From a virus (lineage: Duplodnaviria > Caudoviricetes): a stretch of 25,657 bases of DNA. Both the position numbers and the translations under genes were made by a program. This document shows positions 5,814-25,657 of the stretch, piece after piece (positions within the stretch are counted from its first letter, which is position 1; every line of letters starts with the position of its first letter). The notes below the pieces were generated by a model, which saw only the letters and a program-made list of their open reading frames with translations, had not been told where the DNA came from and made no database searches. The stretch is taken from IMG/VR virus record IMGVR_UViG_3300020045_002833, positions 1 to 25,657 of that record. One strand, 5' to 3'.

Positions 5814-5825
5814 GAGTTTGACGGG

Positions 5826-6014: not shown

Positions 6015-6034
6015 AGTGGTGTTTGGTTTGTGTT

Positions 6035-6066
6035 AAAGAAGGGAGGGCCGAATTAACGACCCTCCC
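6035..6066 (-). terminator. Intrinsic terminator after major capsid gene
   Basis: Minus strand GGGAGGGTCG-TTAATT-CGGCCCTCCC (10-bp stem, one G-U) followed by TTCTTT, 13 nt after the capsid stop. Confidence 0.75.
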
Positions 6067-6079
6067 GCGAGCGGACAAC

Positions 6080-7465: not shown

Positions 7466-7509
7466 ATTATTAGTTGGTTATTGGTTTTGTGTTTGGATTG
7501 AAACTAGGA

Positions 7510-8205: not shown

Positions 8206-8206
8206 G

Positions 8207-8560
8207 TTATTGTTGGTTTTGGTTTGGGAGGGATTTGAGGACTTCTTCGGCTTCGGCAGAAGCCAGTTGATCGTTCAAATCGGAGAGAATAATTTCAAAC
8301 ATTTGGACCTTTTCTTGCACAATTCGGAGTTGGCCGAGTTGCTGTTCCCTTAAAATGAAGGTTGCAAAGTCAGTTGGCGGGATTGCAACCGACGAAATGA
8401 TTTCATTCAGCTCAGCCTGGGCTTCTGCAACAATCGAAAGCCCCACGTCACTGGACTGGAACTGCTGGGTCTCCAGGATTAGGCGTTTGATTTCCGGCAG
8501 ACTGAGCGAGGGCAAGCTGCTGTTGCTGTTGTTGGAGGGCGAGAAGCTGTTGGGGGTCAT
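8207..8560 (-). CDS. Small helical protein between portal and scaffold, ~117 aa (start uncertain)
   Basis: Preferred ATG at 8560 with AT-rich leader (caattcaaatATG); amphipathic helices LSLPEIKRLILETQQF and LREQQLGQLRIV; overlaps portal 3' end. Confidence 0.6.
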   Translation of the reverse strand: MTPNSFSPSNNSNSSLPSLSLPEIKRLILETQQFQSSDVGLSIVAEAQAELNEIISSVAIPPTDFATFILREQQLGQLRIVQEKVQMFEIILSDLNDQLASAEAEEVLKSLPNQNQQ

Positions 8561-10319
8561 ATTTGAATTGAGATAGTCCGCCGATTCCACGGAGTTTATA
8601 GATACCTTGAAGGATTCGGTTCGGATCAAGGTTGAATTGGAGAGCAGCTTGAGGGTTAGTGAGGAGGATGCTGAGAAGTTCCTGCAATGACTGGGCAAGG
8701 AATCCTTTCTCACTAGGGAGAGAGCCGTCATAAACAGTTGTATCGTAGCTTTGAGCCAAATCCTCAGGGGTTCCGTGGAATTGAGGATACAAACCAGCCT
8801 CAGAATCACCAACAATACGAACAAAAGTTTCTTCCGAAAGAGCCTGCCTGTGGTTCAAGAGCAGCCGTTGTGATTGTGGCCGGAAAGCACAGGTCCAGAG
8901 AATGTCCAGAACCAACTTCATCCGACTTGCAGCACCCTGAACAACCGAACGAGCCTCTGTGGCACTTCGACGCCCACCATTGTATTGTCCCATGGCGTTG
9001 TCATTAACCCCAGACACCATCTGCATGACAGTCATGAGATTGTTCGCATCACCCACATGGCCAGTTGTTGTGTCCTGGACCTGAACTTGGGTGATGTAGC
9101 GACGAACATCAGTGCGAGCAGCACTCTTTCGAAGAAGAATAATCCTGGACCGCTTTTCGATTGAACTCACCTCAATCCCGGTAGGATCGACAATGAATTG
9201 ATTGTCAATGGTGCGGGAAACACTCGCCACACGAGAATTGATGAACCAGGAAATTGTGGCTTGGAGGTTATCAATAATACCCGCAAGGCCTGTTGGGGAA
9301 AATTCGTTGATATCGGCAGAAAACTGACCAACCGAACAAGGGTATTGATTATGAATGGTGTTGCTGGGTTCGCATTTGATGACCCGACTGTCATTCGCCA
9401 CCCAAATCACATAGCGGACGGGGAAAGTTTCAGGCCCGAGGGGTTGCATATCCTCGTCCACAAACTCGGATGGAACCAGCCACGTGTGGAATTCTGTTCG
9501 GCTGACTATATTCTTCTCCTTATCTGGTTTGCTCCAGTTGAAAATCCCAGACCGCATTTGATTCCGTCCCCACTGTTTGAGGTTGGTTTCAGCAAAAGCC
9601 TGGACATGTTTGATGCCATGCACCGACCCAAGGGATTCAAGATGCTGGAGTTCCATCTTGGAAATCTCATCCTCAAACCCGACAAAGGAACCCTTCTTCC
9701 ACTCAGCAATAGGATACGCAGGATCGGGGAAGAAACGATATGGGGAAACCACGTCGAGCCGATTCCCCTGAAACGTCCGAACCTTCTTGAATGTTGTGGT
9801 TGTGGTGTCGGGATCGCCATTCTGACCAGGAAAGACGTTGACCGTTGGAATGTAGGTGAATTCTTCCACCCAACTGTCTTTGAGAATGCCAATGGAAAAG
9901 CGTGCAACGTCAAGCAGAAATTGCATAACCAGCCGATCGCCTTCCGAGGTTTGGAAATCCCGTTCAACAATGGTGTCTGCCGCACCTGACCACGCCTTGT
10001 CAGTGTCACCTGTGCCGGAATAACCATAGAACGTGTCCTTCTGCTTGAGCAGCATATAACAGAATGCGACGAAGGTGTTAACCTGTGCATAGGTGAGGGG
10101 GATTGTCATCCCGGTGGGAAGGCCTTGCTCAGCCGCCTGAATGTCGGCTTTGGTCGGTGTCCTCTTACTCGAATACAATTCAGCCTGCTTGTCCCAATAC
10201 GAATAATATTCAGACATCTTGCTCCGTGACGCAACAATGCGATCCTTGACATGAGTCAGGATTTTCTGGTGAAGCGGAGTGATGTCTTCTTGTTTAAGTT
10301 GTTCGTTAAGAGTAGCCAT
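8448..10319 (-). CDS. Portal protein (P22/SU10-like), 623 aa
   Basis: Directly after terminase (TAATG overlap); motifs IPLTYAQVNTFV, VSPYRFFPDP, GVNDNAMGQ, RRSATE typical of podoviral portals. Confidence 0.88.
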   Translation of the reverse strand: MATLNEQLKQEDITPLHQKILTHVKDRIVASRSKMSEYYSYWDKQAELYSSKRTPTKADIQAAEQGLPTGMTIPLTYAQVNTFVAFCYMLLKQKDTFYGYSGTGDTDKAWSGAADTIVERDFQTSEGDRLVMQFLLDVARFSIGILKDSWVEEFTYIPTVNVFPGQNGDPDTTTTTFKKVRTFQGNRLDVVSPYRFFPDPAYPIAEWKKGSFVGFEDEISKMELQHLESLGSVHGIKHVQAFAETNLKQWGRNQMRSGIFNWSKPDKEKNIVSRTEFHTWLVPSEFVDEDMQPLGPETFPVRYVIWVANDSRVIKCEPSNTIHNQYPCSVGQFSADINEFSPTGLAGIIDNLQATISWFINSRVASVSRTIDNQFIVDPTGIEVSSIEKRSRIILLRKSAARTDVRRYITQVQVQDTTTGHVGDANNLMTVMQMVSGVNDNAMGQYNGGRRSATEARSVVQGAASRMKLVLDILWTCAFRPQSQRLLLNHRQALSEETFVRIVGDSEAGLYPQFHGTPEDLAQSYDTTVYDGSLPSEKGFLAQSLQELLSILLTNPQAALQFNLDPNRILQGIYKLRGIGGLSQFKYDPQQLLALQQQQQQLALAQSAGNQTPNPGDPAVPVQ

Positions 10320-11779
10320 TAGAATGCTTTAGCAAAAGGGACAATACGTTCGAAATCCGAATCCTCAAGTTGAATGTATTCAAGTCCAGTCAACGCAAGG
10401 CGGTAGAAATTCTCCATCATGTGGTCGTCCTTGTCCCTCGGTTTATTCGGACGCTTGTCGTCCCACGTATACCGGTCGATTTCAAAAAGAAATTCCGAAA
10501 GGTGTTGGGAAACATTAACCTTCCCCTTGACCGCTAGAAGTTGCTTTACAGCAGTGATACCACGGCTGGGGTCCTTGGGCCCTTTTTCGAGATAAATACC
10601 ATGTTCCGCCAGATCGTCCGCCATGCTGGTTTTGTCATTGGGAGACAACAAATAGGCCGAGGGATCGCAAATGGCACGAGCACAGAAATAAGCCCCAATC
10701 TTTTCGTTGATTTGGGCAGCAAGCTCTGTGCTTGTGCAGGGGTCAAAGATTTCATCAAAAATCCAAACACTGCCGTCAGGTGCCGTAGCAGCAAAAAGGA
10801 CAGCATGAGGGGTGTGAGGGTGCGGATCGAGAGCATAGCGGATGGTATAGTATGCAGGAGGTTTGTTCATCGCCTCCCAACCATTCGGAACACCCACATA
10901 AATATTATCATCCCGAAAGTCATTGTAGATGATGCCACCGAAATCCGTCGGCATCCCCATGATACGAGCTTGACGTTGGTTTTCGGTCAATCCCTTGTCG
11001 AATTCTTTCAACCCCTCGGAGGAGGTGTAGGGATTATCATACGAGGAACCAACAATAACCACCTTCGTCCCATCAATGATGTTGGCAATGGTAGGGTCGA
11101 GGTTGGCCCTCTTCGAGGCAGAAAAGAAATCATTGATCCAAGGTTCACGAAGGGGCGTGCATGTGAACCAAGCTTTACCATTCCGGTCGATAAGTCCCCG
11201 AGCAGAAGCCGTCCACATTTCTTTTGGAATCGGCTCATCCACATGGATCCAATCCCAATCAGAACTCTCAGAACGCTGGTCGTTTTGCTTGAAAGCTGCG
11301 ACCGTATCGAGGCAGATTGTAGATTCCCCACCATGGACGGATTTGACAATAATCTTGTCAATGTTGCCAGAATGATTCTTCTCAACCTTGACAACACTTT
11401 CCCTCGGAAGAAACTTGAAAATCTTCCCCATATCCACACCCTCAGATTGAGATGTGAAGATTTCATCTGCTTTACCCCAGTCGGTGCAGATGATTAAACC
11501 CTTCGTGGTTCTTTGTGGGATTCCATGAAAACGCATCGGGTCATTCTTCTCAAGCCAAGGGCGTTCACCAAGAGCAAAAGCACAATCCTCAGCTGCCCCC
11601 ATGTCACTTTTCCCGAAGCGATTCCCCGTCCGAACATAGCGGTATTTGAAATCCGCAAGACTGTGGAATTTGGATTGCTTCGCATGTGGGCGGTAGTAGG
11701 CAAGACCATTCGACTTCTTCAACTCTTTGCGGAGTCGGAGAAGCCGGATTAGTTCAATGTCTTCTACAATATCAGCCAC
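10319..11779 (-). CDS. terL: Terminase large subunit, 486 aa
   Basis: Adenine-binding PHAKQ, Walker A GNRFGKS, Walker B WIHVDEP, coupling motif FTCTP, RNase H-like nuclease YALDPH...CDPS...DDHMME. Confidence 0.93.
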   Translation of the reverse strand: MADIVEDIELIRLLRLRKELKKSNGLAYYRPHAKQSKFHSLADFKYRYVRTGNRFGKSDMGAAEDCAFALGERPWLEKNDPMRFHGIPQRTTKGLIICTDWGKADEIFTSQSEGVDMGKIFKFLPRESVVKVEKNHSGNIDKIIVKSVHGGESTICLDTVAAFKQNDQRSESSDWDWIHVDEPIPKEMWTASARGLIDRNGKAWFTCTPLREPWINDFFSASKRANLDPTIANIIDGTKVVIVGSSYDNPYTSSEGLKEFDKGLTENQRQARIMGMPTDFGGIIYNDFRDDNIYVGVPNGWEAMNKPPAYYTIRYALDPHPHTPHAVLFAATAPDGSVWIFDEIFDPCTSTELAAQINEKIGAYFCARAICDPSAYLLSPNDKTSMADDLAEHGIYLEKGPKDPSRGITAVKQLLAVKGKVNVSQHLSEFLFEIDRYTWDDKRPNKPRDKDDHMMENFYRLALTGLEYIQLEDSDFERIVPFAKAF

Positions 11780-11781
11780 AA

Positions 11782-12396
11782 TTACATCGGTTGGAGTTGG
11801 TATTGAACCCCGTTCACACGGGCGGGAACATCAGGGAAAATAGTATATTGCACAACCTTGCTGGTGGTGCCACCATGCCGAGGGCTTGGATTGAATCCGA
11901 GTGCAGCCGCGAGTGCCATCGACCCTTCTCCGAGTTTGCTCCTTGGTCCAATGTCGGCAACAACAGCATCCACAACCTTCCCGTTGCAGGAAACTCGTGC
12001 ATGGCATCCCATGACAACCCCAGGAACAGAGAGGCGGATTTGAGGGGGAACCACCACATAGGGGACACTCTCAGCATCCACATAGCGTAGGGGATTTTTC
12101 AACGAAAGAACCTTTCCTTCGGGAGTTTTCCGGTGTTGGTAGGTTGTTGGGGAAACATAATACCCAGGTGCAGGATCATTCGGCCCCTGAACAACGGGTT
12201 CGCCATTCTCAGTCACAATCCCCCACCAATTTCCAGGCCTCCCAGCACACGAAATGTCGTCAAGGCCCTTCTTATTCTGTGGGTGGTAGGCGCGATAAGC
12301 TCCATCTGCGTCAATAGCAAGACCTGCAACCCACGAAAGGGAGGCGTCTGCATTCAAAACGACAGGGATATTTGCAACAACAAGAAGAGTTTTCAT
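11782..12396 (-). CDS. Glycoside hydrolase family 75 (chitosanase-like) protein, putative endolysin, 204 aa
   Basis: IDADG, GYYVSPT, YVDAESVPYVVVP and ADIGP...GEGSMALA motifs match recalled GH75 consensus; last gene of a cluster of membrane proteins. Confidence 0.75.
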   Translation of the reverse strand: MKTLLVVANIPVVLNADASLSWVAGLAIDADGAYRAYHPQNKKGLDDISCAGRPGNWWGIVTENGEPVVQGPNDPAPGYYVSPTTYQHRKTPEGKVLSLKNPLRYVDAESVPYVVVPPQIRLSVPGVVMGCHARVSCNGKVVDAVVADIGPRSKLGEGSMALAAALGFNPSPRHGGTTSKVVQYTIFPDVPARVNGVQYQLQPM

Positions 12397-13910: not shown

Positions 13911-15533
13911 TTATGCAATTTTAAGGGTTCCTGAGTCGTTCCAGATGTCGCCAGCGGATAATCCAGCGGCACTGGTTGGAAGGTTTGATAGATTCAGACG
14001 TGAGGCTCGAAGCGGGGCGTCTGCGGAGTCGTCACCTAACCTTGAGACTAGGGTGGTTCCGTCGCGCTTGATCGCTGGGAAAGATGATGAATTCCCACCC
14101 AAACACATAATGTGATCCGAAAACAAAAAAACCGAGCCACCGAAACGGATAGCGGGATACCCGGCCCCAACGTCCCCAAAACCAATGGACAGTGTCCCGC
14201 CATTGTCCGCGATGTGCCCTGCGGTTTTAATTTTAATGCCGGATGAATTCACCGTCAGTGTGGCGTCTCCATCGCGACGAATAATCAAATCCCGCGCACT
14301 CCCCCCACTCGCTCCCTTCTCAGTCCCGATCACGAACGCGCCAGAGCCGCTGTCATACTTGGACGACAGGCGCTCGTAAACGGTGGATGAGGTGTCCGTG
14401 GCATAAATCTCGAATGTTTGAGCGCTTGCCCCGTTTGCTAGACACACTTTATTTGCCGTGCCTTTCGATGAAATAAATGTCCCGTGAAGGCCGATACCAA
14501 AACCGGATGATGCATCCGTAATCGTTAGGTTTCCAAAGTAAGCACCAGCCCCATAAACATTAGAAAATCCCGATCCTGAATTCCTGAAAACCCAGCAGGT
14601 ATAAGCGTTAAGGTATGCCAATCTTGCCTGAACAGTCGTCCCGTCGGTGTCTTTAGCGATGATGTTCGCCTCGTTGGAGAGTGTAATCGATCCAACTCCG
14701 GTTGTTGCTCCAATGGAACTCGGATTGATCGCCTCTCTGTCTTTTGCTGCTACGCCTAAATTTGCCCGCGCTGTTGATGCGCTGGTGAGGTCTGAGAGGT
14801 TGCTCGACTTGTCCATCTTTGATGTCGAGAGCGAGCCAACGGAACTTGAAACCGAGGAGATGGCGCTTGCGTTATCGCTTAACTCTGTTGCCACGTCCAC
14901 TCCACCCGATAGAGTTAGTGAATTGTGAGTAACGTCATCGTCAACGCCTAGCCCAATATTGGTTGCCGCTTGCTCTTTCTGTCCTGCGTCGAGAGTTTGC
15001 GCGGTGTAAAGGACGGCATCTGTTGCGCCTCCAGACTCCAAAGCTGTCACCCTGTCGTCAATAGCGCCAACGGTTGCGATGGTTGCGTAAACCGCCGCCA
15101 CCGCTTCCGATGTTAAATAGATGTCAGTCACCGCCGGAGGATCTGCCGTGAGACTTGCGGTTGAGTCGTCCGCATTCAGTTTCAGCGTCCCAATCCACAG
15201 CGTCCGGTGCGTGTCGCCTTCGGTTGCGTAAAGGATCAGCGCGTAATCTGTGGCAGTCTTATCGACTGCCTGATTCATCTGCGCCGAGGTAAACGCCAGT
15301 GTCACACTCGCGCCTGTTGGAGATGCTGAAGACGAAACGCGAGCAAGTAATCCATCATCTCCCGGTGTGGACGCTGCCCGCAATTCCAGCCTGACAACAT
15401 CTGCGCCGTTGAAAGTTTGCCCTGTCGGCAAAGTGAAAACGAAGCTCGCAGGATTCGCCTGGAATAGTTCGCACTCGGTTGGAGTCGTCGATGATTCCGG
15501 TGTGATTGCGAAAGATTTTGTCGAGAGTGCCAT
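13911..15533 (-). CDS. Tail fibre / receptor-binding protein, 540 aa
   Basis: BppU-like beta N-terminus, shaft motifs (QTLDAGQKEQAATNIG, NLSDLTSASTARANLG), fibre modules NGASAQTFEIY...YER, SSSFPAIKR and C-terminal LPTSAAGLSAGDIWNDSGTLKI. Confidence 0.8.
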   Translation of the reverse strand: MALSTKSFAITPESSTTPTECELFQANPASFVFTLPTGQTFNGADVVRLELRAASTPGDDGLLARVSSSASPTGASVTLAFTSAQMNQAVDKTATDYALILYATEGDTHRTLWIGTLKLNADDSTASLTADPPAVTDIYLTSEAVAAVYATIATVGAIDDRVTALESGGATDAVLYTAQTLDAGQKEQAATNIGLGVDDDVTHNSLTLSGGVDVATELSDNASAISSVSSSVGSLSTSKMDKSSNLSDLTSASTARANLGVAAKDREAINPSSIGATTGVGSITLSNEANIIAKDTDGTTVQARLAYLNAYTCWVFRNSGSGFSNVYGAGAYFGNLTITDASSGFGIGLHGTFISSKGTANKVCLANGASAQTFEIYATDTSSTVYERLSSKYDSGSGAFVIGTEKGASGGSARDLIIRRDGDATLTVNSSGIKIKTAGHIADNGGTLSIGFGDVGAGYPAIRFGGSVFLFSDHIMCLGGNSSSFPAIKRDGTTLVSRLGDDSADAPLRASRLNLSNLPTSAAGLSAGDIWNDSGTLKIA

Positions 15534-15556
15534 TAAAAAACGGCGAGTGTCAACCC
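15534..15556 (-). promoter_or_regulatory. GGGTTGACA motif 14 nt upstream of tail fibre ATG (copy 1)
   Basis: Minus strand gggTTGACActcgccgttttttaATG; similar copy at 20355-20379. Confidence 0.6.
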
Positions 15557-15557
15557 T

Positions 15558-16358
15558 TCAAAGGAACCTGTGGAGTTTGTGATTCGGCGTTTTCAATATC
15601 CGTTGCCATCCTGAGTTGAACTTGTCGAGAGCGTCGGGGAATTCTCGTTCCAGAATCTCGGTCACAAGCGCCACTGCTACAGGATCGCGCTTTCGCTCGC
15701 CAGCCAAGTGTGTGTAATCCAGTCCTGCGAAGTCTGCAATGTATGGGTGACCGTCCGTTAAAGTTGTCACCTCTGGAACGATTCCACCAATCAGATACTG
15801 CTCAATCTGCATTGAGAGCGTTGTCCCGCTGATGTCGCTTCCAATTAGCTTTCCAGCATCGCTTAAAGCCCGCTCTGCGTATACTTTGACTTGCTGGTAA
15901 TCATTCCCGCCGATTAGCCCGCAGTTGTAGGGAATCCATCCATCTGGATAACCGAGAATCCGCCGAGTCTGTTTTGCATTCTCGAGATAGTAGCCAGCTT
16001 CATAATCTTTCGATTGCGTGATGAATCCGCCAGCGAGGAAACTTTCAGGCGGGGGGGAGAGGGTCAAAACGTCGCCGTCGAATTGCAGAACCGGACCACC
16101 CGCTTTTATCAGCGTCCAGAGCTTACCGATTGCCCAAATCCTCCGCAGTCCGGTGCGTGGCATGTCGTCTAACCATCTTTCGATACGGACATCCCATCCC
16201 AATTCACGCGCTAAAATCTCGCCACCTTTGTCCGTGGAAAATGTGATTTCGCCATGATGCTTTTGCGCCAAGCAATGCGCCAGAGTTTGCACAAGTAACG
16301 GTTCGCGCCGGACCTTAAAGCGGTCAGTGCCAGTCCAGATGCTTGTGGCGAATCGCAT
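15558..16358 (-). CDS. DUF6734-like / GT-A nucleotide-sugar transferase-like protein, 266 aa
   Basis: STDKGG, WAIGKL, PVLQFDGDV (DxD), YNCGLIGG, IEQY and YTHLAG motifs recall DUF6734 and GT-A fold enzymes. Confidence 0.65.
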   Translation of the reverse strand: MRFATSIWTGTDRFKVRREPLLVQTLAHCLAQKHHGEITFSTDKGGEILARELGWDVRIERWLDDMPRTGLRRIWAIGKLWTLIKAGGPVLQFDGDVLTLSPPPESFLAGGFITQSKDYEAGYYLENAKQTRRILGYPDGWIPYNCGLIGGNDYQQVKVYAERALSDAGKLIGSDISGTTLSMQIEQYLIGGIVPEVTTLTDGHPYIADFAGLDYTHLAGERKRDPVAVALVTEILEREFPDALDKFNSGWQRILKTPNHKLHRFL

Positions 16359-17233
16359 TACACAGAGGCAACGCTGATGGAATTATCGTCGAGAGCTTCG
16401 CAAGTGCGGAGGAAATTCACAACCAACTGAGCTGCATCAACCACTCCCGGCCCTGCTCCCGGTTGGTTATAGTCCGCATCCAATGTGCAAGATCCAAGAT
16501 CGTTCCACGCTACTCCTTCAAATTTGAATCCACCGTTAAAGCCTGGGTAAGCTGTGCCAAGTTGGATTTCTTCGTCAACTTCGCCAGCGTTCAGCGTAAC
16601 AGAGATGTCACCAACCCCTTTAGGTCCGCCCATGATCGTAACCTTTGCAATAACGTCCACGGTTGCTGGTGCCGAGAGTAAACAATGCCGCTCGTTATTT
16701 TCTGGCGTGCCGTAGTCAACGATTGCTGTGATCACGATTCGCGCCTCGCCTGCGGTGCCAGTGCCGTGTGGTGGGTGCGATGATCCGCCGCCCCCACCTC
16801 CTCCGCCGCCCCCGCCACCTGCTCCTGCGCCCCCGCCTCCACCGCCCCATGATCCACCGCCACTACCTCCGCCAGCAACTACAGGCTCGCCAGTTACAGG
16901 ATCGGGGAAAGTGTCAGGTGGTGGAGTTGTTGATCCTCCCGCTGGCGGTGTCGTTGTAGTTGGCGGAACGATGATGCCGTCTGTTGGTGCTGGCGGGGGA
17001 ACGATAACCTCGCCATTCCCATCCGTTACCCATGGTTCGTCTGTCCAATCGTTCGCGAGGAATTCACCACGCTTGAATTCCGCTGCTACAACTACGTGGT
17101 CCGTCTCTGATTCTTGCTGATGGAACCAAAGCGAAGTGGTGTAGTAAATCCATTCCTTCCACGCCTCACGCCGGATTTTTGATCCTTGGAAGGCGAGTGC
17201 CCGAGCCTGAAACCAGTTTAATTTTCGGCTCAT
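16358..17233 (-). CDS. Fusion protein: Tad2/DUF2829-like N-domain, Pro/Thr and poly-Gly linker, beta-rich C-domain, 291 aa
   Basis: Start at 17233 (TAATG overlap): MSRKLNWFQARALAFQGSKIRREAW...EFLANDW. Confidence 0.6.
   Translation of the reverse strand: MSRKLNWFQARALAFQGSKIRREAWKEWIYYTTSLWFHQQESETDHVVVAAEFKRGEFLANDWTDEPWVTDGNGEVIVPPPAPTDGIIVPPTTTTPPAGGSTTPPPDTFPDPVTGEPVVAGGGSGGGSWGGGGGGAGAGGGGGGGGGGGGSSHPPHGTGTAGEARIVITAIVDYGTPENNERHCLLSAPATVDVIAKVTIMGGPKGVGDISVTLNAGEVDEEIQLGTAYPGFNGGFKFEGVAWNDLGSCTLDADYNQPGAGPGVVDAAQLVVNFLRTCEALDDNSISVASV
16784..16873 (-). repeat. Low-complexity poly-Gly coding tract
   Basis: GGGSGGGSWGGGGGGAGAGGGGGGGGGGGG encoded by mixed GGN codons. Confidence 0.85.
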
Positions 17234-17985
17234 TAGTTTGGAATGATTTCGCGCACAACTTCCGCGATGAAGGTTCGCGATGATGTGACCGATGTAGCAG
17301 CGCCGAGCGTCGCCGGTGCAACCCATGTGAATTCTGCGAGTGCATTGATTTTGGTTCCTTTGGGATCTTCTTCGTCGGATAGAGCGGCATCGAGTGCGCC
17401 CGCTGTCAGCGTTGCGCGAAGGAGGTAACTTGTGTTCTCGCCGCTGCCCGCTTTCGCGAACGTGCCGGAATCCACAAGAACCGGCTCATCATCGAGTGAT
17501 TTGATACCAAACGTGAGCTCGTCCAAGTCAAGATCAGCAATCACGCCGCCCTTAGAAAAGCGAATGCGGAAGAAAACATCGTCGTTGCTTTTGATGCTAA
17601 CGAGAGGCTTATCCTTTTCGATTTGTTGCGTCACCGTCGCGCTGATGACATTTGAGAATGTGACAATCTTGGTTTGTAGGTCAATCCACAAATCCACTTC
17701 ATCTTTCGGCGGCCCGTAGCCGCCAGCCTCGATTCCGATTGTAATCGTGAGCATGGCAGAAGCGCCGGCATCATTACCTGCAATCAAGCCGCAATTGTAA
17801 ACGCCGGGGAGTTCAGCCGCGCCACTAATTAGCCCTGAAACAGGGTTGAAATCCATGCCTGTTGGTAAGCCGGAAATATTCCAATAGGTGTCATCCCCCA
17901 AGACTGTCATGGGTTGGAATTCCCAAGTCTGCCATTGGCGGTAACCGAGAACGCTAGTTGTGCTGTTGATCGTTGGAATAGCCAT
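17233..17985 (-). CDS. Putative Ig-domain (He_PIG-like) tail protein, 250 aa
   Basis: SGLPTGMDFNPVSGLISG...PGVYN...AGNDAG matches the putative Ig consensus; second beta-sandwich-like domain follows. Confidence 0.75.
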   Translation of the reverse strand: MAIPTINSTTSVLGYRQWQTWEFQPMTVLGDDTYWNISGLPTGMDFNPVSGLISGAAELPGVYNCGLIAGNDAGASAMLTITIGIEAGGYGPPKDEVDLWIDLQTKIVTFSNVISATVTQQIEKDKPLVSIKSNDDVFFRIRFSKGGVIADLDLDELTFGIKSLDDEPVLVDSGTFAKAGSGENTSYLLRATLTAGALDAALSDEEDPKGTKINALAEFTWVAPATLGAATSVTSSRTFIAEVVREIIPN

Positions 17986-20354
17986 TAGGTGAAGGAAACT
18001 TTAGCGTTGGACATCTTGGCCCAAACTGCGCCTTTTTGGTCGCGTGTTGAGTTCTCAGTGTCGAATTGTCCGAGTCTGAAACGAATCAGGAACGATGATT
18101 TTTCACTGTCGAAAGTTGGCGCGTCGTCGGAATCCTCCCATGATCCATAAAGCAACTTCTTGGCAGTGATGACATCGGAAATTGAACGGAATACGGCCAC
18201 GCCAAACGTATGCTTGACTCGCGTGTTGGAAACGATGATTCGCTTGTCACTAGCCCAATCGTCGGTTGACGCGGTTGGATATGAAATGTCCTCAAGGTTG
18301 TCGTCTGTTGTCGCCGGAGACGTGTCCATTGAGTCGTCGCCGAATTCAATCAGTGCGAGGTATTGGCAATTTACGTCGGTGCCGATTGTCTGAATTTCCA
18401 AGTCGAAAGTGAGAGTCATTTCCTTCCCAAGTTTCAGCATTCCAGCATTGACCGGAACCGAGAAGAATTCGTGGTCGAATGCTTTCGGGAAATAGGATTT
18501 GAAGGTAGGGCGGTTGTAAACTTTGTAAAACCTTGCTCCATCACCTGCGAAAAACTCGTTCGTCTCAACGTAGAATGACTTGTGACCGCCGCCACCTGGA
18601 ACAAGGAAGCGCGTGCTTGTATTCTTCCAAACGATGCTCGCGATGGATGGTAGAGAGGTAACTTCCGTTGGTGCGGACGAATGATTTGCGGGCAACAAAA
18701 TCTTGTAGCGGTTAAGCGCCACTGGTCCTTCCTTGAGCTTGGAAAGTTGCGTTTCTGGAATCTCGCCCGGGTATTGCCAGCTTGCGTCTGGAATAGTGAT
18801 TTCTGCCTTGGTTGCTGAATCTGCCACGCTTGAAGGTGAAGTGTAGGGTAAGCGGTCCTCGATTGCTGTTAAGCGGTCCGCGAGATCGTCCAGAGCATCT
18901 TGCAATCCGACAATCTGCGCAATCGTGTGAGTGTGGCTTTGAAAGGCTGAAATTGGCCCTGCTGTTGCAATGACAATCAGAAGCGCGTTCGTTGCTGGAG
19001 CGGAACCAAGCCACGTCACGACTGCGACATTCGCGTTTGTGAAAGTGACGGTGTAATGCGTGCCAAGCTGGTAAAGCGTGCCACCGCTGGCATTACCGCG
19101 AACGAGAACGCCCGCCACGTTGTCAGTCGCGAGGTTGTGCGTGACTGTGAAGGAGGTGAGAACGCCATTTCCGACCGCGACTGAATAATACTGCGTTCCC
19201 GTGATAACTTGGTCAACGGTGAACGGGATATAGTTCGTCGGCTCTGGTGGAATCAGCCAATCGATGCCTTGCACCGTGCCGGCCAACTCTGGAAAGATTT
19301 GCTGGCGAACACAATTTGATAGGACTTGGAAAGTGATAATCCGGCCCGCGATTTCAGGGTCTTCTGGATCTTCACCGAGTTCCATGACTTCAACCTCGAT
19401 TTCAAACGGGATGTTTTCGAGCTTGTCAGCGGCCCGCAATGCTGCGTCGAATTCCACCGTGTTGAGATCCAAAAGGAATTCAGGCGTGCCAGGCTGGAAC
19501 GTCTCAACGGTGACTTCCGCCAAGTCACGCGAGCCATCCGAAAGCAGTCCGATGAATTCGATATAGGCCTCGTTCTCAACTGGATTCGTGACGCGGAAAC
19601 GCTTCAATCCATCATCCCACATTTGGTTAAGCGCATCCTCAATCTGGATTGGTGACGCATCGTTTCCAAGAATGATTGTGGAGCGGTAATCGTATTTTAG
19701 ATAGAACGTGCCGCGAAAGTCCGCCGGAACGAGTAACGATTGAATCTCGTTGATGCTCGTCTCTGTCACGCCGTCACCCGTATTGCCTGCGCGGATTCGC
19801 TCAACGCTTGGTTGATCTGCGAGGTTTCGCACCCACGTGTCGGCAAATGCCCACGGTGATTGCAAATACTTGATTTCAACCGTCCACTTGCCGTTAAATT
19901 TGATATACCGAATGCGGACAAATGATCTTGGATCGAGTGAATTCGCTGTGACTGTAAAGGCCGGCTCCGGTTCAGTGTCGGCAAGATCAAGCGTAACTCG
20001 CCATTCGGAAGATCCAAGCAGGTCCACACTTAACGCGTTCCAGTCAGCCTCTGCCGTGTCGAAGATTTCAGCCGCCGTTGCATCAAACGGAATTGAAATT
20101 GCAATACTCTCGTATTCCAACTGCGCCGCTCCGCTGGTCGGTGCCGCGAAACGTCTGCCAAGTGAAGCGCGAATGGAACGAATCGGAACATCGTTGCGGA
20201 TCTTCACTCCAGTTGCGTCGTCTGCCTCAACGAGCGAGAATGCGAACTTCGGCTTGTCACCAAGAATAAACGTCCGCACGGGAGGTGTCCCGCCCTCAGA
20301 GGTTACAAAGGATTGAGTGGCGATGTCGCCGTAAAGTTTTGTTGGTGCAGCCAT
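17985..20354 (-). CDS. Large tail/baseplate structural protein, 789 aa
   Basis: Long acidic beta-rich ORF; fibre-like motifs GNGVLTSFTVTHNL and HTHTIAQIVGLQDALD; internal similarity IPFDATAAEI vs LGNDASPIQIEDAL. Confidence 0.7.
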   Translation of the reverse strand: MAAPTKLYGDIATQSFVTSEGGTPPVRTFILGDKPKFAFSLVEADDATGVKIRNDVPIRSIRASLGRRFAAPTSGAAQLEYESIAISIPFDATAAEIFDTAEADWNALSVDLLGSSEWRVTLDLADTEPEPAFTVTANSLDPRSFVRIRYIKFNGKWTVEIKYLQSPWAFADTWVRNLADQPSVERIRAGNTGDGVTETSINEIQSLLVPADFRGTFYLKYDYRSTIILGNDASPIQIEDALNQMWDDGLKRFRVTNPVENEAYIEFIGLLSDGSRDLAEVTVETFQPGTPEFLLDLNTVEFDAALRAADKLENIPFEIEVEVMELGEDPEDPEIAGRIITFQVLSNCVRQQIFPELAGTVQGIDWLIPPEPTNYIPFTVDQVITGTQYYSVAVGNGVLTSFTVTHNLATDNVAGVLVRGNASGGTLYQLGTHYTVTFTNANVAVVTWLGSAPATNALLIVIATAGPISAFQSHTHTIAQIVGLQDALDDLADRLTAIEDRLPYTSPSSVADSATKAEITIPDASWQYPGEIPETQLSKLKEGPVALNRYKILLPANHSSAPTEVTSLPSIASIVWKNTSTRFLVPGGGGHKSFYVETNEFFAGDGARFYKVYNRPTFKSYFPKAFDHEFFSVPVNAGMLKLGKEMTLTFDLEIQTIGTDVNCQYLALIEFGDDSMDTSPATTDDNLEDISYPTASTDDWASDKRIIVSNTRVKHTFGVAVFRSISDVITAKKLLYGSWEDSDDAPTFDSEKSSFLIRFRLGQFDTENSTRDQKGAVWAKMSNAKVSFT

Positions 20355-20379
20355 CTAAAAAATGGCTGTCTGTCAACCC
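20355..20379 (-). promoter_or_regulatory. GGGTTGACA motif 16 nt upstream of ATG (copy 2)
   Basis: Minus strand gggTTGACAgacagccattttttagATG. Confidence 0.6.
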
Positions 20380-20403
20380 GTGTAAAATTCCCGAATTTAG
20401 CTA

Positions 20404-20431
20404 TTGCATTCCTCTTGAGGTATGGGATTAT
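20404..20431 (+). promoter_or_regulatory. Possible sigma70-like promoter for the structured RNA region
   Basis: TTGCAT (20404-20409), 16-nt spacer, TGn-GATTAT (20423-20431); imperfect match. Confidence 0.3.
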
Positions 20432-20447
20432 TTCGTAGATTCAACTG

Positions 20448-20694
20448 GTTCGCTTCGTGATGGGAGCAATCCCGCAGAGCGAACACTCAAGCCCGATACG
20501 CCCATCACCGTATCGGGCTTTTTGTTTGCACTGATCATTGTCCTCCTCAGCTCAAAAGAGGTCATCGGCCACCGTAAGGCAAGGCCAAACACTCGCTGGG
20601 GGCTTGTATGTCGGAGCGAGGATAAACTAAATCCGGCAAGTCCTCCCTTTTCACCTTTTTTCGAGTCTATCGAATGAGGGGAGGGGGAGTCTTG
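20448..20694 (+). ncRNA. Candidate structured RNA / attenuator leader
   Basis: Stem GTTCGCT/AGCGAAC enclosing GGGA-GCAA-TCCC GNRA hairpin; 12-bp terminator-like hairpin; GGCC...ccGTAAgg...GGCC; long hairpin 20637-20694. Confidence 0.5.
20489..20527 (+). terminator. Intrinsic terminator-like hairpin
   Basis: AAGCCCGATACG-CCCATCAC-CGTATCGGGCTT perfect 12-bp stem followed by TTTGTTT. Confidence 0.8.
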
Positions 20695-20717
20695 AGAAGG
20701 ATAGTAGATAATCTATT

Positions 20718-20888
20718 ATGAAGGAAGAGAGAAGACTAGATCGACAACGAAAAAGGTTTCTGCAAATGCACGAAACAACACTTCGCGCCATTATCAAAAA
20801 TCCAACGGTCAATCCCGCAACCGTCACAAACGCAAAGGCTGAACTCTCACGGCGAGTCAATCCTTCGCGGACTGAACTCCCAAGCTGA
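20718..20888 (+). CDS. Small basic helical protein, 56 aa, not in ORF track
   Basis: MKEERRLDRQRKRFLQMHETTLRAIIKNPTVNPATVTNAKAELSRRVNPSRTELPS; lies directly after the structured leader; only plausible plus-strand gene. Confidence 0.55.
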   Translation: MKEERRLDRQRKRFLQMHETTLRAIIKNPTVNPATVTNAKAELSRRVNPSRTELPS

Positions 20889-21000
20889 TGACCAGAAAAG
20901 CGACAGCGCCCAAAGCCGCCAACCATTCCTTCTCAAATCCTGAGTAGATCGCGAACAGTAAAAGACAGATGTTCGTCGTGTTGTGGATATATTTACGCAT
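20857..21000 (-). CDS. Small two-helix membrane peptide, 47 aa, not in ORF track
   Basis: MRKYIHNTTNICLLLFAIYSGFEKEWLAALGAVAFLVISLGVQSAKD; two hydrophobic segments; starts 30 nt after the upstream stop. Confidence 0.5.
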   Translation of the reverse strand: MRKYIHNTTNICLLLFAIYSGFEKEWLAALGAVAFLVISLGVQSAKD

Positions 21001-21030
21001 GTCAGAAAAGTGCGCGAAATTCTAAAAAGA

Positions 21031-21192
21031 TCAAACCACTTTCTTAGGCGGATCCGCAGTCACACCAAACACGCCAGCAGGAAAAGGAATCGCCACAAAT
21101 GGAAACTTCGGATTGAGCGGAGGAGGCTTAGGAATAGCCGCCCGTGCTTTTGCCTGCGCTGCTGCTGCGTTTGTTTTTGGGTCGAGTGGCAT
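21031..21192 (-). CDS. Small Pro-rich protein, 53 aa
   Basis: Preferred ATG at 21192, 4 nt after upstream stop: MPLDPKTNAAAAQAKARAAIPKPPPLNPKFPFVAIPFP... Confidence 0.55.
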   Translation of the reverse strand: MPLDPKTNAAAAQAKARAAIPKPPPLNPKFPFVAIPFPAGVFGVTADPPKKVV

Positions 21193-21196
21193 ATTG

Positions 21197-22054
21197 TTAA
21201 ACGGTCCAAAAATATCCTTGTGACGCCGACTTAGCAAACCAAGCGTTGATCTGCGCTGAAAGAAATTGGTCCTGCTGGATCTCCGCGAAACTCGGATTCC
21301 CGATGCCGCCAGCAAGCGCCGTCAAGAATGACACTTTCAACTCTTCGAAACTGCTGCCGATGTCCGCCCTGCTCGCGTGGTTGAGATTCCAGAAGCAGTA
21401 GTGGCGCACGTAAAGATCCCAGCTTTGATCTGGATCGTCGCCCGCAACATCTGGCGCCACCGCGTAAATGGTCGCGATTCTTTGCTGATCATAAGGCGGT
21501 TCAACCGCAAGCCCAAGATACCATTCCAAATCTGTAGGCTCTGCGAGCGCTTCTAGTTCGCGACTGGTAACAACTTGATAGCGCGGCACGTTGTTAAAGA
21601 TCGTTGCCGAAAATGAAGTCGTGATGTCGATTTGCCCAAGCGTGGAACTGATTTTCTGATTTGCCGTGATCCGTGGAGAAATTAGAATCACCTCGCAAGT
21701 CTTCAAGAATCGGTCGCCAACTTCCTCCGCGATTGCTGCCGGTGCCGCCGCTCCTACGTTCCAGCCTCCAACTCGTAGTGTGAAACCTTCGCTGATTGGT
21801 TTCCCATTCGCCATGACTTCGCAGCCGTTGACCATGCCAGGCTTAATCCTGATGCGCCAAATCGGCTTTTCATCTCCTTCCTCCTGCGTGAAGACTGGCC
21901 TGCAAAACCATGGATGTTCGTAGTCGTCGGAAGTGTAGCCGTTGAGAATTGCGCCAACTCTGCGATGATCCACCTTGCCGTTGCGCACGGAGATAATCCG
22001 CTCGCGGTTGATCGCCCGTGCCGTGTCGTTGTAATCTCTCGCCGTGCCTTTCAT
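21197..22054 (-). CDS. Putative tail tip protein, 285 aa
   Basis: ATGA-coupled; YEHPWFC...RIKPGMVNG motif; downstream of tape measure. Confidence 0.65.
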   Translation of the reverse strand: MKGTARDYNDTARAINRERIISVRNGKVDHRRVGAILNGYTSDDYEHPWFCRPVFTQEEGDEKPIWRIRIKPGMVNGCEVMANGKPISEGFTLRVGGWNVGAAAPAAIAEEVGDRFLKTCEVILISPRITANQKISSTLGQIDITTSFSATIFNNVPRYQVVTSRELEALAEPTDLEWYLGLAVEPPYDQQRIATIYAVAPDVAGDDPDQSWDLYVRHYCFWNLNHASRADIGSSFEELKVSFLTALAGGIGNPSFAEIQQDQFLSAQINAWFAKSASQGYFWTV

Positions 22055-22638
22055 CCCGCAGCATAAGCCAAATGGCGAGCTTTGCCACTTGCGGCCCCTC
22101 CCGGTCGAGTTCTGACTTCGAGATTATGGATTACGTGCTGAATCGAAATGATGCGCCCCTTGATGTTTTTGATGAACAGAATCGGCACGTTGACCGTTCC
22201 ATCGTCCAAGGTGTCATATCCGCCGATGCCGGGATTGCTGTCGCCCGCGAAAGGTTTCGGCGTGAATTCGTAAGTCCAATATTCAACGCTCCAATCATCC
22301 TTGAAACGGATCTTGGCAACGATCCACGCCCGACCTTCTGCGTCGTAGCTTGGTGAAAACTTGATACTGAAGGGCTCCACCACTTCTTCACCATTGTTGA
22401 GCGGTAGCTTTTTGTTAATCAAACCCGGATTGATCTGGCAAGTGTTACCCTGTAAATCGCATTTGTGAGGGTGATTGAAACTTGCGCCACCGCCAATGAA
22501 ATGCACCCGTGTGCCGTTTGGTGATTTGGCCAACCTTACGTTGCGCCCTGCAATCAGTCGATTCGCTGCAACGCCATCGTCGATAGCTTGCCAGTCATCA
22601 GCCTTTAAAGGGTCGCCCGGTTGAATGTCCTTAATCAT
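22051..22638 (-). CDS. Putative tail tip protein, 195 aa
   Basis: IQPGDPLKADDWQAI...IAGRNVRLAKSPNGT N-terminus and FNHPHKC...INPGLIN motif; ATGA-coupled. Confidence 0.65.
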   Translation of the reverse strand: MIKDIQPGDPLKADDWQAIDDGVAANRLIAGRNVRLAKSPNGTRVHFIGGGASFNHPHKCDLQGNTCQINPGLINKKLPLNNGEEVVEPFSIKFSPSYDAEGRAWIVAKIRFKDDWSVEYWTYEFTPKPFAGDSNPGIGGYDTLDDGTVNVPILFIKNIKGRIISIQHVIHNLEVRTRPGGAASGKARHLAYAAG

Positions 22639-22847
22639 CGCTTCTTGGAAGTTTTTACCATCTGCCGTTCAAGTGTAGATGTTAACTCCTTTGTCAAGGA
22701 GTGCGCGCAGAGTGCATCCGCAAGTTTCCTGCCAGCCTCATTAATGATGGCCACATCACCGATCAACAGTAACACCCCTCTTCGATCAACCGCCAAAGCA
22801 GTTATTTCGCCGTGAATATTGTGGATTTCTATTCTTGTGATGTCCAT
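22635..22847 (-). CDS. Hypothetical protein, 70 aa
   Basis: Fills the gap exactly, with ATGA overlap to the next gene. Confidence 0.55.
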   Translation of the reverse strand: MDITRIEIHNIHGEITALAVDRRGVLLLIGDVAIINEAGRKLADALCAHSLTKELTSTLERQMVKTSKKR

Positions 22848-22849
22848 AG

Positions 22850-23602
22850 TTATGTCAGTTGTGACGATGAGTAGATTTTCTTAAGCCATCCGCGCGGTCC
22901 AGAAAGCATCCATTCAGCGGAAATCTGATAACGGTTACCACGCTCGGAAATCTTCGGCCCAAGTTTCAGCCAGTTGCGCTTGATGGGAATGGTGATGCCG
23001 AGTTTGGACAAGCCTTGTGGCCTGTTGGTAATGGTGCCGATGCCCTGCATTACCCAAGATGGAATAGTGCGGCCTGAGAACGAAACGCGGAGTTGAGCGC
23101 CTGGAACCAGCCAAGCCTCTGTCCCGTATGCGTCCGACCGTTGCACGTTGTCCTTTTGCAGTCCGCTTTGAACGCTAGTAAGGGTTTCATCTCCCGGCAT
23201 GAATTCCTTGAATTTGTGCTCGTTGTAATCCCACCCGTAGTATTCAACCAGAGATTTGAAATCAGGGTGCGCTTCCATAGGCGCTTCCGTCATCGTGTTA
23301 TCAAGCTCGACTGTATATTCAGACTCCGACATCTCACCCTGCGAATCACTGCCGCCCTCGTAATTGTAAGTCACGAACGCCACGCCTTTTTCCACCTTGC
23401 AACTTGAGCCGACACATGGAATCCCGAATGGATCTGGAGCCGATGAAGGTAGAAGCCAATCAGGATTGATTTTCGCGTCCGTGGTTTCGATCTGGAAACG
23501 CGATTCAACCTCACCGCTAAAAATGAGCAGTTTGTTGCACCGCAAACCCTTGATTGAATAGTTCGCGCTTCCTAATGCTCTTCCTCTGATGTTTATTGCC
23601 AT
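22850..23602 (-). CDS. Putative distal tail/hub-like protein following tape measure, 250 aa
   Basis: Overlaps TMP stop; EAPMEAHPDF and RNWLKLG...YQISAEWMLSGPRGW motifs; positional inference. Confidence 0.65.
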   Translation of the reverse strand: MAINIRGRALGSANYSIKGLRCNKLLIFSGEVESRFQIETTDAKINPDWLLPSSAPDPFGIPCVGSSCKVEKGVAFVTYNYEGGSDSQGEMSESEYTVELDNTMTEAPMEAHPDFKSLVEYYGWDYNEHKFKEFMPGDETLTSVQSGLQKDNVQRSDAYGTEAWLVPGAQLRVSFSGRTIPSWVMQGIGTITNRPQGLSKLGITIPIKRNWLKLGPKISERGNRYQISAEWMLSGPRGWLKKIYSSSQLT

Positions 23603-25149
23603 ACGGGTTTTTTATCTCGAATTTCCTTGAGTAGTTCGGTCTGCGTGTTCGCCTGCCGCTCAATCTTCTCAGATGCACGGGCAATGCGTTCCTCTGTGGT
23701 GCCGCGTGACGTGCCGACGAATCCGCCGCCGCCGATCTTGGTGATTGCGTCGCTTACAACCGTGTCTTTGATTTTTGATGCCACCTGAGCGAGCTTCTTT
23801 TGCCGCTCCTCTTCCTCTTTCATCTTCCGGTTCTCTTCCTCGTTCTTGCTGCTCTGCGTCTGCGATGGAGCGACTTGGAAATTGTCCTTGGTGAATTTGC
23901 CCGCAAGATTGGAAACGGAATCAATGAACGCATTTCCTGCCGCTTGCTGCGCCGTGTTTGAATTGCGCATCATGTCCGCGGCCTGAGCGTTTGCGCCTTG
24001 CGCCCTGATCTTGGAAAGCTGATCTTGAACGTCTTTGATTTCCTGCTCGAATGGCCCCTTGTTCAAAATGGCCTCAGTCTGGATTTCACCGATTGCTTTG
24101 CTCCTCTCTTCCAAGCTCTTAAACGGCTTCACCATCTCGAATCCGATCTTGATCTCAGCGAGCACGTTTGCCATTTTGATGGCGAAGAAATTCGCAGCTT
24201 CCAGCAGTCCGAGCTTGAGCGGCTGAATGATCGCATCAACCGCATTCCCTTTCTCGAATGCTCCGCGAATGTAAGATCCCCATTCGGCGATTGAACTTCC
24301 AACGTCTTTCGCTGCCGTCTTCATTCCGCCGAGTTTCTCAATCGCAAACTGCATCAGAGGCTTGAGCGAGTCCATGATTGGCGTAGCAAACTCAACTTTC
24401 ACAGCATCCCAGCCCGCCAAGAGCGTTGACTTCAAACCGTTGAACGTGCCGCTCTGCTGCGCCATCATTCCGTTGAACTTGCCACCGCGTGCTGTCATGT
24501 CTTGGAATGCCTTTTCCAGCATTCCGAAATTGATTTTCCCCTCACTTCCCATCTTTTTCACCTGCTCGACACCTACGCCGAGTTGTGCCGCGAAGGAATC
24601 CAGCACGTTGATCCCCCTGCCTGTTAGCTGGTTGATGTCTTCTGCGAAAAGTGTTCCTTGCACGCGAGCCTTGCCGAAAATCTCGGAGATCTCACCAATT
24701 GGAGCACCAACGCCAGAGGCAATGTCTCCGATGGTTGTCAGTGTCTGCGCAACGGTGCCGGCTGATTGCCCGAACGCGAGCAGGCTTTTCGCTGCGTCGT
24801 TGATCTCCTGATCTCCATAAGGCGAAGTGTCCGCGAGCTTTTTAAGCTGCCCTAGAACCTGGGTTGTCTCTTCAACGCTGCCAATGAGAACCTTGAAGCT
24901 GGTTCGCGTCTGCTCTGCTTGTCCAGCAACGTCAAACGCGCTGGCTATTTGATCCTTGAGAGCGCCAAGCGGTGCCGTTAGTTTACCAATGAAATCAAAC
25001 GCGCCATTGAGGACGTTTAGCTTCCCGGCCAATCCAGTGATGCCTTTCAACTGCTCACGCATTGCGCCGAATGACGAATTAAGTTTCGCCAATCCGGTAT
25101 TCAACGCGCTGGCATCTAAGCCAACATTTACTTTGACGCCATCAGCCAT
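23593..25149 (-). CDS. Tail tape measure protein, 518 aa
   Basis: N-terminal VKVNVGLDASALNTGL; tape-measure domain EQTRTSFKVLIGS...ADTSPY...AKSLLAFG...IGDIASG...EDINQLTGRGI...QSGTFNGLKSTL. Confidence 0.9.
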   Translation of the reverse strand: MADGVKVNVGLDASALNTGLAKLNSSFGAMREQLKGITGLAGKLNVLNGAFDFIGKLTAPLGALKDQIASAFDVAGQAEQTRTSFKVLIGSVEETTQVLGQLKKLADTSPYGDQEINDAAKSLLAFGQSAGTVAQTLTTIGDIASGVGAPIGEISEIFGKARVQGTLFAEDINQLTGRGINVLDSFAAQLGVGVEQVKKMGSEGKINFGMLEKAFQDMTARGGKFNGMMAQQSGTFNGLKSTLLAGWDAVKVEFATPIMDSLKPLMQFAIEKLGGMKTAAKDVGSSIAEWGSYIRGAFEKGNAVDAIIQPLKLGLLEAANFFAIKMANVLAEIKIGFEMVKPFKSLEERSKAIGEIQTEAILNKGPFEQEIKDVQDQLSKIRAQGANAQAADMMRNSNTAQQAAGNAFIDSVSNLAGKFTKDNFQVAPSQTQSSKNEEENRKMKEEEERQKKLAQVASKIKDTVVSDAITKIGGGGFVGTSRGTTEERIARASEKIERQANTQTELLKEIRDKKPVWQ

Positions 25150-25657
25150 CTTGAACCTCCTTTTTCATTTCCTCTTCCATTTCTTTGATGAATTCCGCTT
25201 CGTCTGGCGTTACGATCTGGCTTGAAGTAACTCCTTCGATTTCAGCGATTGCTGCCGACTTCCAGAAAATCTTCCCAATCGGAGCAGTCCAGATTTCCGC
25301 CTCTGTCATGTTCGTTTTAAGCTCCAAGAATGACGCAACCGAGAGCAGTGCCGGTGCCCGCATTGGCTCACCGTTTTTTGATTCCCAAAAGATTGGGCGA
25401 GAATCAAAGTCCTTGAGGTAAGCGCGAAACTTGGCGAGTTCCTGGGCAAACGAAACACGCTTGCATTTGTGCGCCCAAAACGTCCGCCTGAACCCCTCTA
25501 GTGAAACTCTTCCAGCCTGCAAATCCTCATACTTCGATGAGCAAACCAAAACCGCAGCGAGCAAGTCTTCTTGAGTCGGATTATCTCCGAAATATGCCGC
25601 GTTCTGGTCGAGAGAGAGAAAGAATAAGTCATACAGACAGAACGGGTGAAGACGCCG
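25142..25657 (-). CDS. Pre-tape-measure protein (tail assembly chaperone-like), 5'-truncated by window
   Basis: Frame is open from the last base (RRLHPFCLYDLFFLSLDQNAAYFGDNPTQEDLLAAVLVCS...); MTEAEIWTAPIG motif; overlaps TMP start. Confidence 0.65.
   Translation of the reverse strand, partial: RRLHPFCLYDLFFLSLDQNAAYFGDNPTQEDLLAAVLVCSSKYEDLQAGRVSLEGFRRTFWAHKCKRVSFAQELAKFRAYLKDFDSRPIFWESKNGEPMRAPALLSVASFLELKTNMTEAEIWTAPIGKIFWKSAAIAEIEGVTSSQIVTPDEAEFIKEMEEEMKKEVQDG

What the first reader, a model, noticed from the sequence alone, without database searches (positions are those of the whole stretch)
20448..20527. Terminator loop exactly complementary to an upstream hairpin arm (switch or pseudoknot)
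GTGATGGG (20457-20464) is the exact reverse complement of the whole 8-nt loop CCCATCAC (20501-20508) of the 12-bp terminator hairpin, and overlaps the GGGA-GCAA-TCCC GNRA hairpin, so the pairings compete. Resembles in logic the antisense-controlled termination of P1 c4 and P4 CI RNAs, but family identity is not established.
Basis: partly seen in the sequence, partly recalled or inferred. Interest (0 to 1): 0.7.

Follow-up and report, generated by a model that had tools for sequence, protein, structure and literature searches.

The report
Phage small RNA, knotted terminator loop
A 90-base two-hairpin unit between the tail genes of an uncultured phage, kept intact in close relatives whose neighbouring DNA has been swapped, is likely a free-standing small RNA whose terminator loop is predicted to fold back onto its own first hairpin as a stabilising knot rather than act as an on/off switch; its target is untested.

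Summary
It lies in a ~90-nt unit (20438-20527) on the strand opposite the phage virion genes: weak promoter-like site, bulged GNRA hairpin, terminator; fold z -5.9. Three close relatives keep the unit while flanking DNA changes at its ends, so it is probably an RNA gene. No divergent homolog was found, so covariation is untested. The pairing competes with the GNRA hairpin, not with the terminator stem; the nested antiterminator fold peaks at 11% and loses by 15 kcal/mol, and the DNA downstream is not conserved. A termination switch and C4/CI membership are therefore not supported. Best reading: a small RNA whose terminator loop docks 5-7 bp on the upstream bulge, as in RydC, probably a base-pairing regulator (confidence 0.4). 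Chance complementarity inside a real small RNA remains a strong rival (0.3). No Rfam match.

The parts
20438..20527 (+). Candidate small RNA gene (about 90 nt), opposite strand to the virion genes
   Evidence: Fold -39.2 kcal/mol, z -5.9, 0 of 200 shuffles as stable; similarity to relatives begins at 20438 in one X1 contig and ends at 20529 in the other X1 contig and in L100. Expression not shown.
20404..20431 (+). Weak sigma-70-like promoter read by eye: TTGCAT (20404-20409), 16 nt, TG-n-GATTAT (20423-20431)
   Evidence: Sequence; identical in L100; NOT picked up by the consensus scan. Predicted start 20437-20438 agrees with the conservation boundary. Inference.
20438..20447 (+). Unpaired 5' leader, possible seed
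   Evidence: Unpaired in MFE and centroid; no target found
20448..20484 (+). First hairpin: 8-bp basal stem P1 (20448-20455/20477-20484, one U.G), internal loop/bulges, GNRA-capped P2
   Evidence: z -3.6; -17.7 kcal/mol on + against -13.8 on - strand
20457..20464 (+). Arm complementary to the terminator loop; first five bases weakly paired in the bulged region, last three in P2
   Evidence: identical in L100; no difference listed in X1 record 1
20462..20473 (+). P2: 4-bp stem with GCAA (GNRA) tetraloop
20489..20527 (+). Intrinsic-terminator-like hairpin (12 bp) and T run
   Evidence: no T run follows it on the - strand; 13 bp in L100
20501..20508 (+). C-rich 8-nt terminator loop, exact complement of 20457-20464
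   Evidence: identical in L100; no difference listed in X1 record 2
20530..21030 (.). Variable cassette downstream of the terminator (context, not part of the RNA): hairpins, a 56-aa + strand ORF (20718-20888), a 47-aa hydrophobic - strand ORF (21000-20857)
   Evidence: Absent from L100; ORFs; one full-length 52% homolog of the 56-aa ORF
17985..20376 (-). Divergent 789-aa tail-type gene with TTGACA 16 nt before its ATG (context)
   Evidence: (weak tail-repeat hit); homologs

Best explanation
The stretch 20438-20527 is likely a free-standing phage small RNA gene, and its terminator loop, which is the exact complement of a bulged arm in its first hairpin, is predicted to dock on that arm as a 5-7 bp pseudoknot that would compact and protect the finished RNA rather than switch termination. 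Steps: (1) shown: complementarity, two-hairpin fold, T run, conservation as a unit in three close relatives; (2) inferred: transcription from the weak promoter at 20404-20431 and termination at 20527; (3) inferred: docking of the loop's 3' five bases on the weakly paired first five bases of the arm with P2 intact, extendable if P2 opens; (4) inferred, weakest: the RNA works by base pairing, the knot masking the C-rich loop until a target displaces it; the nearest guaranteed partner is any late (minus-strand) transcript running from the tail genes through this site, to which the RNA is perfectly antisense, and trans targets may lie in the unseen 70% of the genome or in the host. Odds: RNA gene 0.75; loop-arm contact real given that, about 0.55; base-pairing regulator about 0.5.
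For: Strand-specific RNA marks on +: two U.G pairs, GNRA loop, T run; z -5.9 against -4.2 on the other strand. Relatives: L100 is 96% identical over 20254-20529 with 9 substitutions in 20254-20399 but none in 20383-20522 and one 1-nt insertion that lengthens the terminator stem (Fisher p 0.02, or 0.07 counting the insertion; boundaries chosen after looking). Two contigs of run X1 match only 20438-20520 and 20461-20529 and run on as unrelated sequence. Changes listed in X1 record 1 (substitution at 20476, 2-nt deletion at 20478, two linker insertions) fall outside both 8-mers and, read by hand, break the weak pairs that hold the arm in the MFE. Energy: freeing the five bulge bases costs 3.3 kcal/mol, freeing all eight 10.1; the 5-bp and 8-bp duplexes are -3.2 and -12.4 including initiation, so docking is within reach but marginal. 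Precedent: E. coli RydC has a 9-bp terminator whose 15-nt loop holds a 7-nt complement of nt 12-18, and breaking that helix cuts its half-life from over 32 to about 2 min (PMC4337610, passages).
Against: No covariation: all three relatives are near-identical in the two 8-mers and no divergent homolog turned up in six pattern scans or in 93 related or look-alike virus records searched with the RNA model. The X1 contigs are 151 nt at depth about 2, and 2 differences in each are not listed, so the variant may hold errors. The promoter is below the scan threshold. An 8-nt loop leaves no spare base for 8 pairs, unlike RydC's 15-nt loop. In the MFE most of the arm is paired. No target: duplex energies with 500-nt flanks are no better than shuffles (best fraction 0.10 of 200). 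No tool here folds pseudoknots.
Confidence: 0.4

Rival explanations
1. A real small RNA or promoter-terminator unit in which the 8-nt complement is a coincidence and never pairs.
For: About 1% per window by chance and the scan reads very many windows; no covariation; arm mostly paired in the MFE; conservation could reflect the whole RNA, not the pairing.
Against: Only 1 of 120 eight-base loops and 1 of 81 terminator-like hits in related phages shows it; the match covers exactly the loop and lands on the least stable part of the first hairpin.
Confidence: 0.3
2. A transcription switch: while the terminator's 3' arm is still inside polymerase, loop and arm pair, and a ligand, protein or antisense RNA locks this knot so that transcription reads through into the exchangeable cassette.
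For: At transcript end 20510 the alternative is only 0.7 kcal/mol above the MFE and holds about 11%; P1-junction-P2 plus a 3' hairpin loop pairing to the junction is the ZTP riboswitch layout (10.1101/521930, passages); a same-strand 56-aa ORF with a homolog lies 190 nt downstream.
Against: The terminator arm need not displace the loop pairing (no shared bases) and the terminator wins by 15 kcal/mol; downstream DNA differs in L100 and X1 right after the T run, and L100's downstream ORFs have no clear PHROG family; no ZTP or other Rfam match.
Confidence: 0.15
3. Inc/repZ-type control on the minus strand: the late mRNA forms the mirror pseudoknot (loop of the terminator's complement with the downstream 8-mer) to favour translation of a downstream gene, and the + strand RNA is the antisense that blocks it.
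For: The complement is symmetric; all long ORFs are on the minus strand; I-complex plasmids use this logic (PMC8383071, PMC10724649, passages).
Against: The next minus-strand start (20354) is about 100 nt past the 8-mer and has its own TTGACA box; the short minus-strand ORF through the site starts in DNA that L100 lacks; no YUNR in either loop (read by hand); X1 record 1 lacks our upstream flank.
Confidence: 0.08

Closest known systems
RydC small RNA of enteric bacteria (Rfam RF00505; PMC4337610, PMC3985669)
   Same: Short RNA with unpaired 5' end and a 3' terminator whose loop pairs with an upstream 7-8 nt segment (checked on the E. coli sequence); the knot stabilises RydC and opens for target pairing (passages).
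   Different: No sequence or model match. Here the partner sits in a bulge of a separate GNRA hairpin, the loop is 8 nt (RydC 15), the gene is in a phage, and neither Hfq dependence nor a target is known.
ZMP/ZTP (pfl) riboswitch (RF01750; 10.1101/521930)
   Same: P1-junction-P2 domain plus a 3' hairpin whose loop pairs with the junction; terminator adjacent.
   Different: No model match. In pfl the pseudoknot strand lies in the terminator's 5' stem and is displaced; here it is the terminator loop. No conserved downstream gene.
P1 c4 / P4 CI antisense RNAs and Gifsy-1 IsrK (RF01695, RF01394; PMC4825925)
   Same: Small structured phage RNA with a terminator; weak IsrB-like outline (E 3.2, 14.8 bits against a cut-off of 35).
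   Different: No C4 match, no separate target sites up- and downstream, no icd/kil/antirepressor gene.
Inc RNA / repZ pseudoknot of I-complex plasmids (PMC8383071, PMC10724649)
   Same: Counter-transcribed small RNA whose hairpin loop, or its complement, pairs with a nearby sequence.
   Different: No rep gene or leader peptide; the complementary site lies inside the small RNA's own span, far from a start codon.

Membership tests
C4/CI antisense RNAs | Match to Rfam C4 model (RF01695) | tested here: not met
   No match at E<=10 (controls rang only below the cut-off, so the control is weak); none in the all-family scans
C4/CI antisense RNAs | Complementary target sites upstream and downstream on the same transcript (seqA/seqC as described in PMC4825925) | tested here: not met
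   No perfect complement of 10 nt or more on the same strand within 1.7 kb; flank duplexes no better than shuffles
C4/CI antisense RNAs | Downstream icd/kil/antirepressor gene (recalled) | tested here: not met
   No such family among flanking ORFs
ZMP/ZTP riboswitch | Match to RF01750 | tested here: not met
   control over the cut-off in 2 of 14 genomes
ZMP/ZTP riboswitch | Pseudoknot strand inside terminator stem; purine/folate gene downstream | tested here: not met
   Strand is the loop; downstream DNA variable
RydC | Match to RF00505 | tested here: not met
   only a sub-threshold hit elsewhere (5347-5398); control over the cut-off in 1 of 14
RydC-like fold (works-like claim) | Terminator loop complementary to an upstream segment | tested here: met
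   RydC itself
RydC-like fold (works-like claim) | Pseudoknot supported by covariation or probing | tested here: inconclusive
   Three near-identical relatives only; no divergent homolog
RydC-like fold (works-like claim) | Knot needed for stability; trans target paired by 5' seed | not testable with these tools
   Needs experiment; about 70% of the phage genome and the host are missing
Intrinsic terminator | GC-rich stem followed by a U run | tested here: met
   12 bp, 7 G-C pairs, T run on + strand only

The most novel reading that the evidence does not exclude
An uncatalogued phage RNA switch: a portable promoter-aptamer-terminator module in which a ligand- or protein-locked pseudoknot between the first hairpin's bulge and the terminator loop gates read-through into whatever gene cassette has been swapped in behind it (or into antisense against the incoming tail-gene transcript). 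It would be a new riboswitch-like class with ZTP-like architecture and unrelated sequence.
Probability: 0.12. Interest if true: 0.75.

Novelty: new variant of a known kind. Interest (0 to 1): 0.4.

Why it matters
Small RNAs of phages outside the model hosts are barely catalogued, and terminator loops are only now being recognised as functional (PMC11979758, passages). If the contact is real, this is a compact, easily made 90-nt test case of a terminator loop docking on an upstream bulge, an arrangement known from RydC but here built on a different scaffold in a phage that probably infects Verrucomicrobia. If it is a switch it would be a new class. With only three close relatives, it is a candidate, not an established family.

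Tried and rejected
Rfam: 0 matches at E<=1 over the window; 3 sub-threshold hits in 20350-20750. Pattern scans for homologs: 11 loci, none with the 3' hairpin, 3 loci, none, 7 loci, 1 true relative, L100, 33 loci, none with the 8-mer in a terminator loop, 16 bacterial loci, none. RNA model R1 (two near-identical sequences, so sensitive mainly to close kin): 85 sources, only window, L100, L010 and one generic terminator; 0 of 50 terminase-relative records, 0 of 4 tail-relative records (L100's record not held), 1 of 39 further records, being L010, which had been fetched by the same motif; 4 weak hits in 249 kb of G051-G054, three read as generic terminators or GC-rich hairpins and one (L170:7696-7727) a plain hairpin that pairs the motif in its stem; no second copy in the window. 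blastn in phages and plasmids: chance-level only. Flanking proteins as single queries found no viral loci; with an alignment, 17 loci, of which the 4 full-length ones show no such RNA upstream. Leader-peptide idea (25-codon ORF starting at 20457): frame-shifted in L100, rejected. A 10-nt complement at 20810-20819 on the minus strand: absent in L100, not better than shuffles. Expression: no RNA holder listed. Verrucomicrobia genomes could not be searched for want of a genome handle. A translation was out of frame and is superseded. The pseudoknot folding routine tried is not in this ViennaRNA build.

Full report
Setting. The window is a linear virus record, about 28% complete. Major head protein, portal, large terminase and tape-measure genes, and all other long ORFs, lie on the minus strand. 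The finding sits on the plus strand in the gap between a 789-aa tail-type gene (starts 20354) and the next tail-module genes (end near 21031). No cultured relative was found. Gene starts mostly lack a Shine-Dalgarno sequence and two have TTGACA 14-16 nt before the ATG; the same spacing marks 10 of 154 long-ORF starts in tail relative G051 against 0 for the reversed word. Earlier AI notes of this scan tie that box to Verrucomicrobia phages; I tested the motif, not the host link, so the host is a lead only.

Observation. Confirmed base for base. The complement is exactly the loop and does not extend. P is about 4e-4 per hairpin (40 of 100,000 shuffles), 1 of 120 eight-base loops in related phage DNA and the only 8-nt case among 81 terminator-like hits, duplicates not removed. 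With 22 comparable hairpins in the window this is about 1% per window.

What the unit is. 20438-20527 folds into a 10-nt free 5' end, an 8-bp stem with a bulged middle and a GNRA-capped tip, a 4-nt linker and a 12-bp terminator with a T run; z -5.9, and the plus strand is preferred. A weak extended -10 promoter can be read by eye at 20404-20431 but is missed by the scan. Metagenome contig L100 keeps promoter and RNA with no substitution in 20383-20522 and one inserted base, against 9 substitutions in the preceding 146 nt (p 0.02-0.07, boundaries post hoc), and becomes unrelated after 20529. In run X1, which also holds 85-95% matches to nearby coding DNA, two 151-nt contigs match only 20438-20520 and 20461-20529 and continue as unrelated sequence. 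The conserved block therefore coincides with the predicted transcript. This is the best evidence for an RNA gene; no RNA data were available.

Switch or knot. The loop bases are not in the terminator stem, so arm-loop pairing competes with the GNRA hairpin only. In nested folding of growing transcripts the alternative helix holds 3% at 20508, 10-11% at 20509-20511, 1% at 20513 and none from 20514; forced, it is 0.7 kcal/mol worse at 20510 and 15.7 worse at 20520. A switch also needs something conserved downstream, and the DNA there differs in the window, L100 and X1. Docking in the finished RNA needs no such thing: freeing five bulge bases costs 3.3 kcal/mol and all eight 10.1, against duplex energies of -3.2 and -12.4 including initiation; pseudoknot loop penalties are not included, so the balance is marginal. 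The changes listed in X1 record 1 weaken the pairs that hold the arm (read by hand) and spare the arm, but this is one low-depth contig with two unlisted differences.

Function. No trans target was found in the available DNA. The RNA would be perfectly antisense to any late transcript crossing the site. I commit to a base-pairing regulator whose C-rich loop is parked on its own arm, at low odds.

Homologs and families. Six pattern scans and five model searches found nothing beyond L100 (details under Tried and rejected), so covariation is untested. No Rfam family matches. The closest working analogue is RydC: the E. coli gene, fetched and folded here, has a 9-bp terminator with a 15-nt loop holding the complement of nt 12-18 (read by eye, the script caught only 5 nt of it), and disruption of that helix destabilises it (PMC4337610). 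The ZTP riboswitch shares the domain layout but not the logic of displacement (10.1101/521930). C4/CI control needs separate target sites (PMC4825925), which are absent.

Literature seen. Passages only: PMC4825925, 10.1101/521930 (74), PMC10724649, PMC11979758, PMC3985669, PMC4337610, PMC8383071. PMC5737381: a term search with no hits (117). PMC10690425: search listing plus supplements 3-6 searched for the element's motifs with no hit; its two zip files and three large files could not be read and may hold the alignments, so the element may be among its candidates. Searches listed no paper on this RNA; the library lacks most subscription papers. The icd/kil/ant context of C4, YUNR loops and phi29 pRNA rings are recalled, not taken from a call.

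Verdict. Real and non-random in sequence; probably a small RNA gene; pseudoknot plausible but unproven (best reading 0.4, chance 0.3, switch 0.15). New variant of a known kind; interest 0.4.

Noticed in passing
window 20376-20354 and 15553-15533 (- strand); G051 (L168-L171): TTGACA 14-16 nt before the ATG of SD-less genes; 10 of 154 long-ORF starts in G051, fewer in G052-G054, and 2 at 13-14 nt among 1704 starts in terminase relatives. Already noted by earlier agents in Verrucomicrobia phages.
   Followed up: partly
window 20530-21030; L100 1-1281: Exchangeable cassette right behind the terminator: different small ORFs in window and L100, several hydrophobic; similarity ends at 20529 in both L100 and an X1 contig, which may mark a recombination point.
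   Followed up: partly
window 20637-20694 (+): Long G.U-rich hairpin (z -4.1 on +, -2.3 on -) that buries a G/A-rich tract 24 nt before the 56-aa ORF 20718-20888; that ORF has one full-length 52% homolog (P0157) and no family.
   Followed up: partly
window 21000-20857 (-): 47-aa hydrophobic ORF without Pfam match, convergent with the small RNA and overlapping the end of the 56-aa ORF; the terminator-like site 20921-20901 lies inside it.
   Followed up: no
L010 1451-1532 (-): Intergenic two-hairpin region of a prophage record shares about 20 nt with the arm and GNRA hairpin; the second hairpin recurs on a Methylobacterium replicon. Fetched by that same motif, so the match is circular; unresolved.
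   Followed up: partly
L102-L134 (most of them), around 1501-1584: A widespread long hairpin directly followed by an inverted repeat enclosing a promoter-like AT-rich core, seen in many virus contigs; unrelated to this finding.
   Followed up: no
window 869-12396 versus 13911-25564: Terminase relatives are complete at 44-50 kb and lack the TTGACA box, while tail-gene relatives are 50-80 kb and have it; the record may be a mosaic or a misjoin.
   Followed up: no
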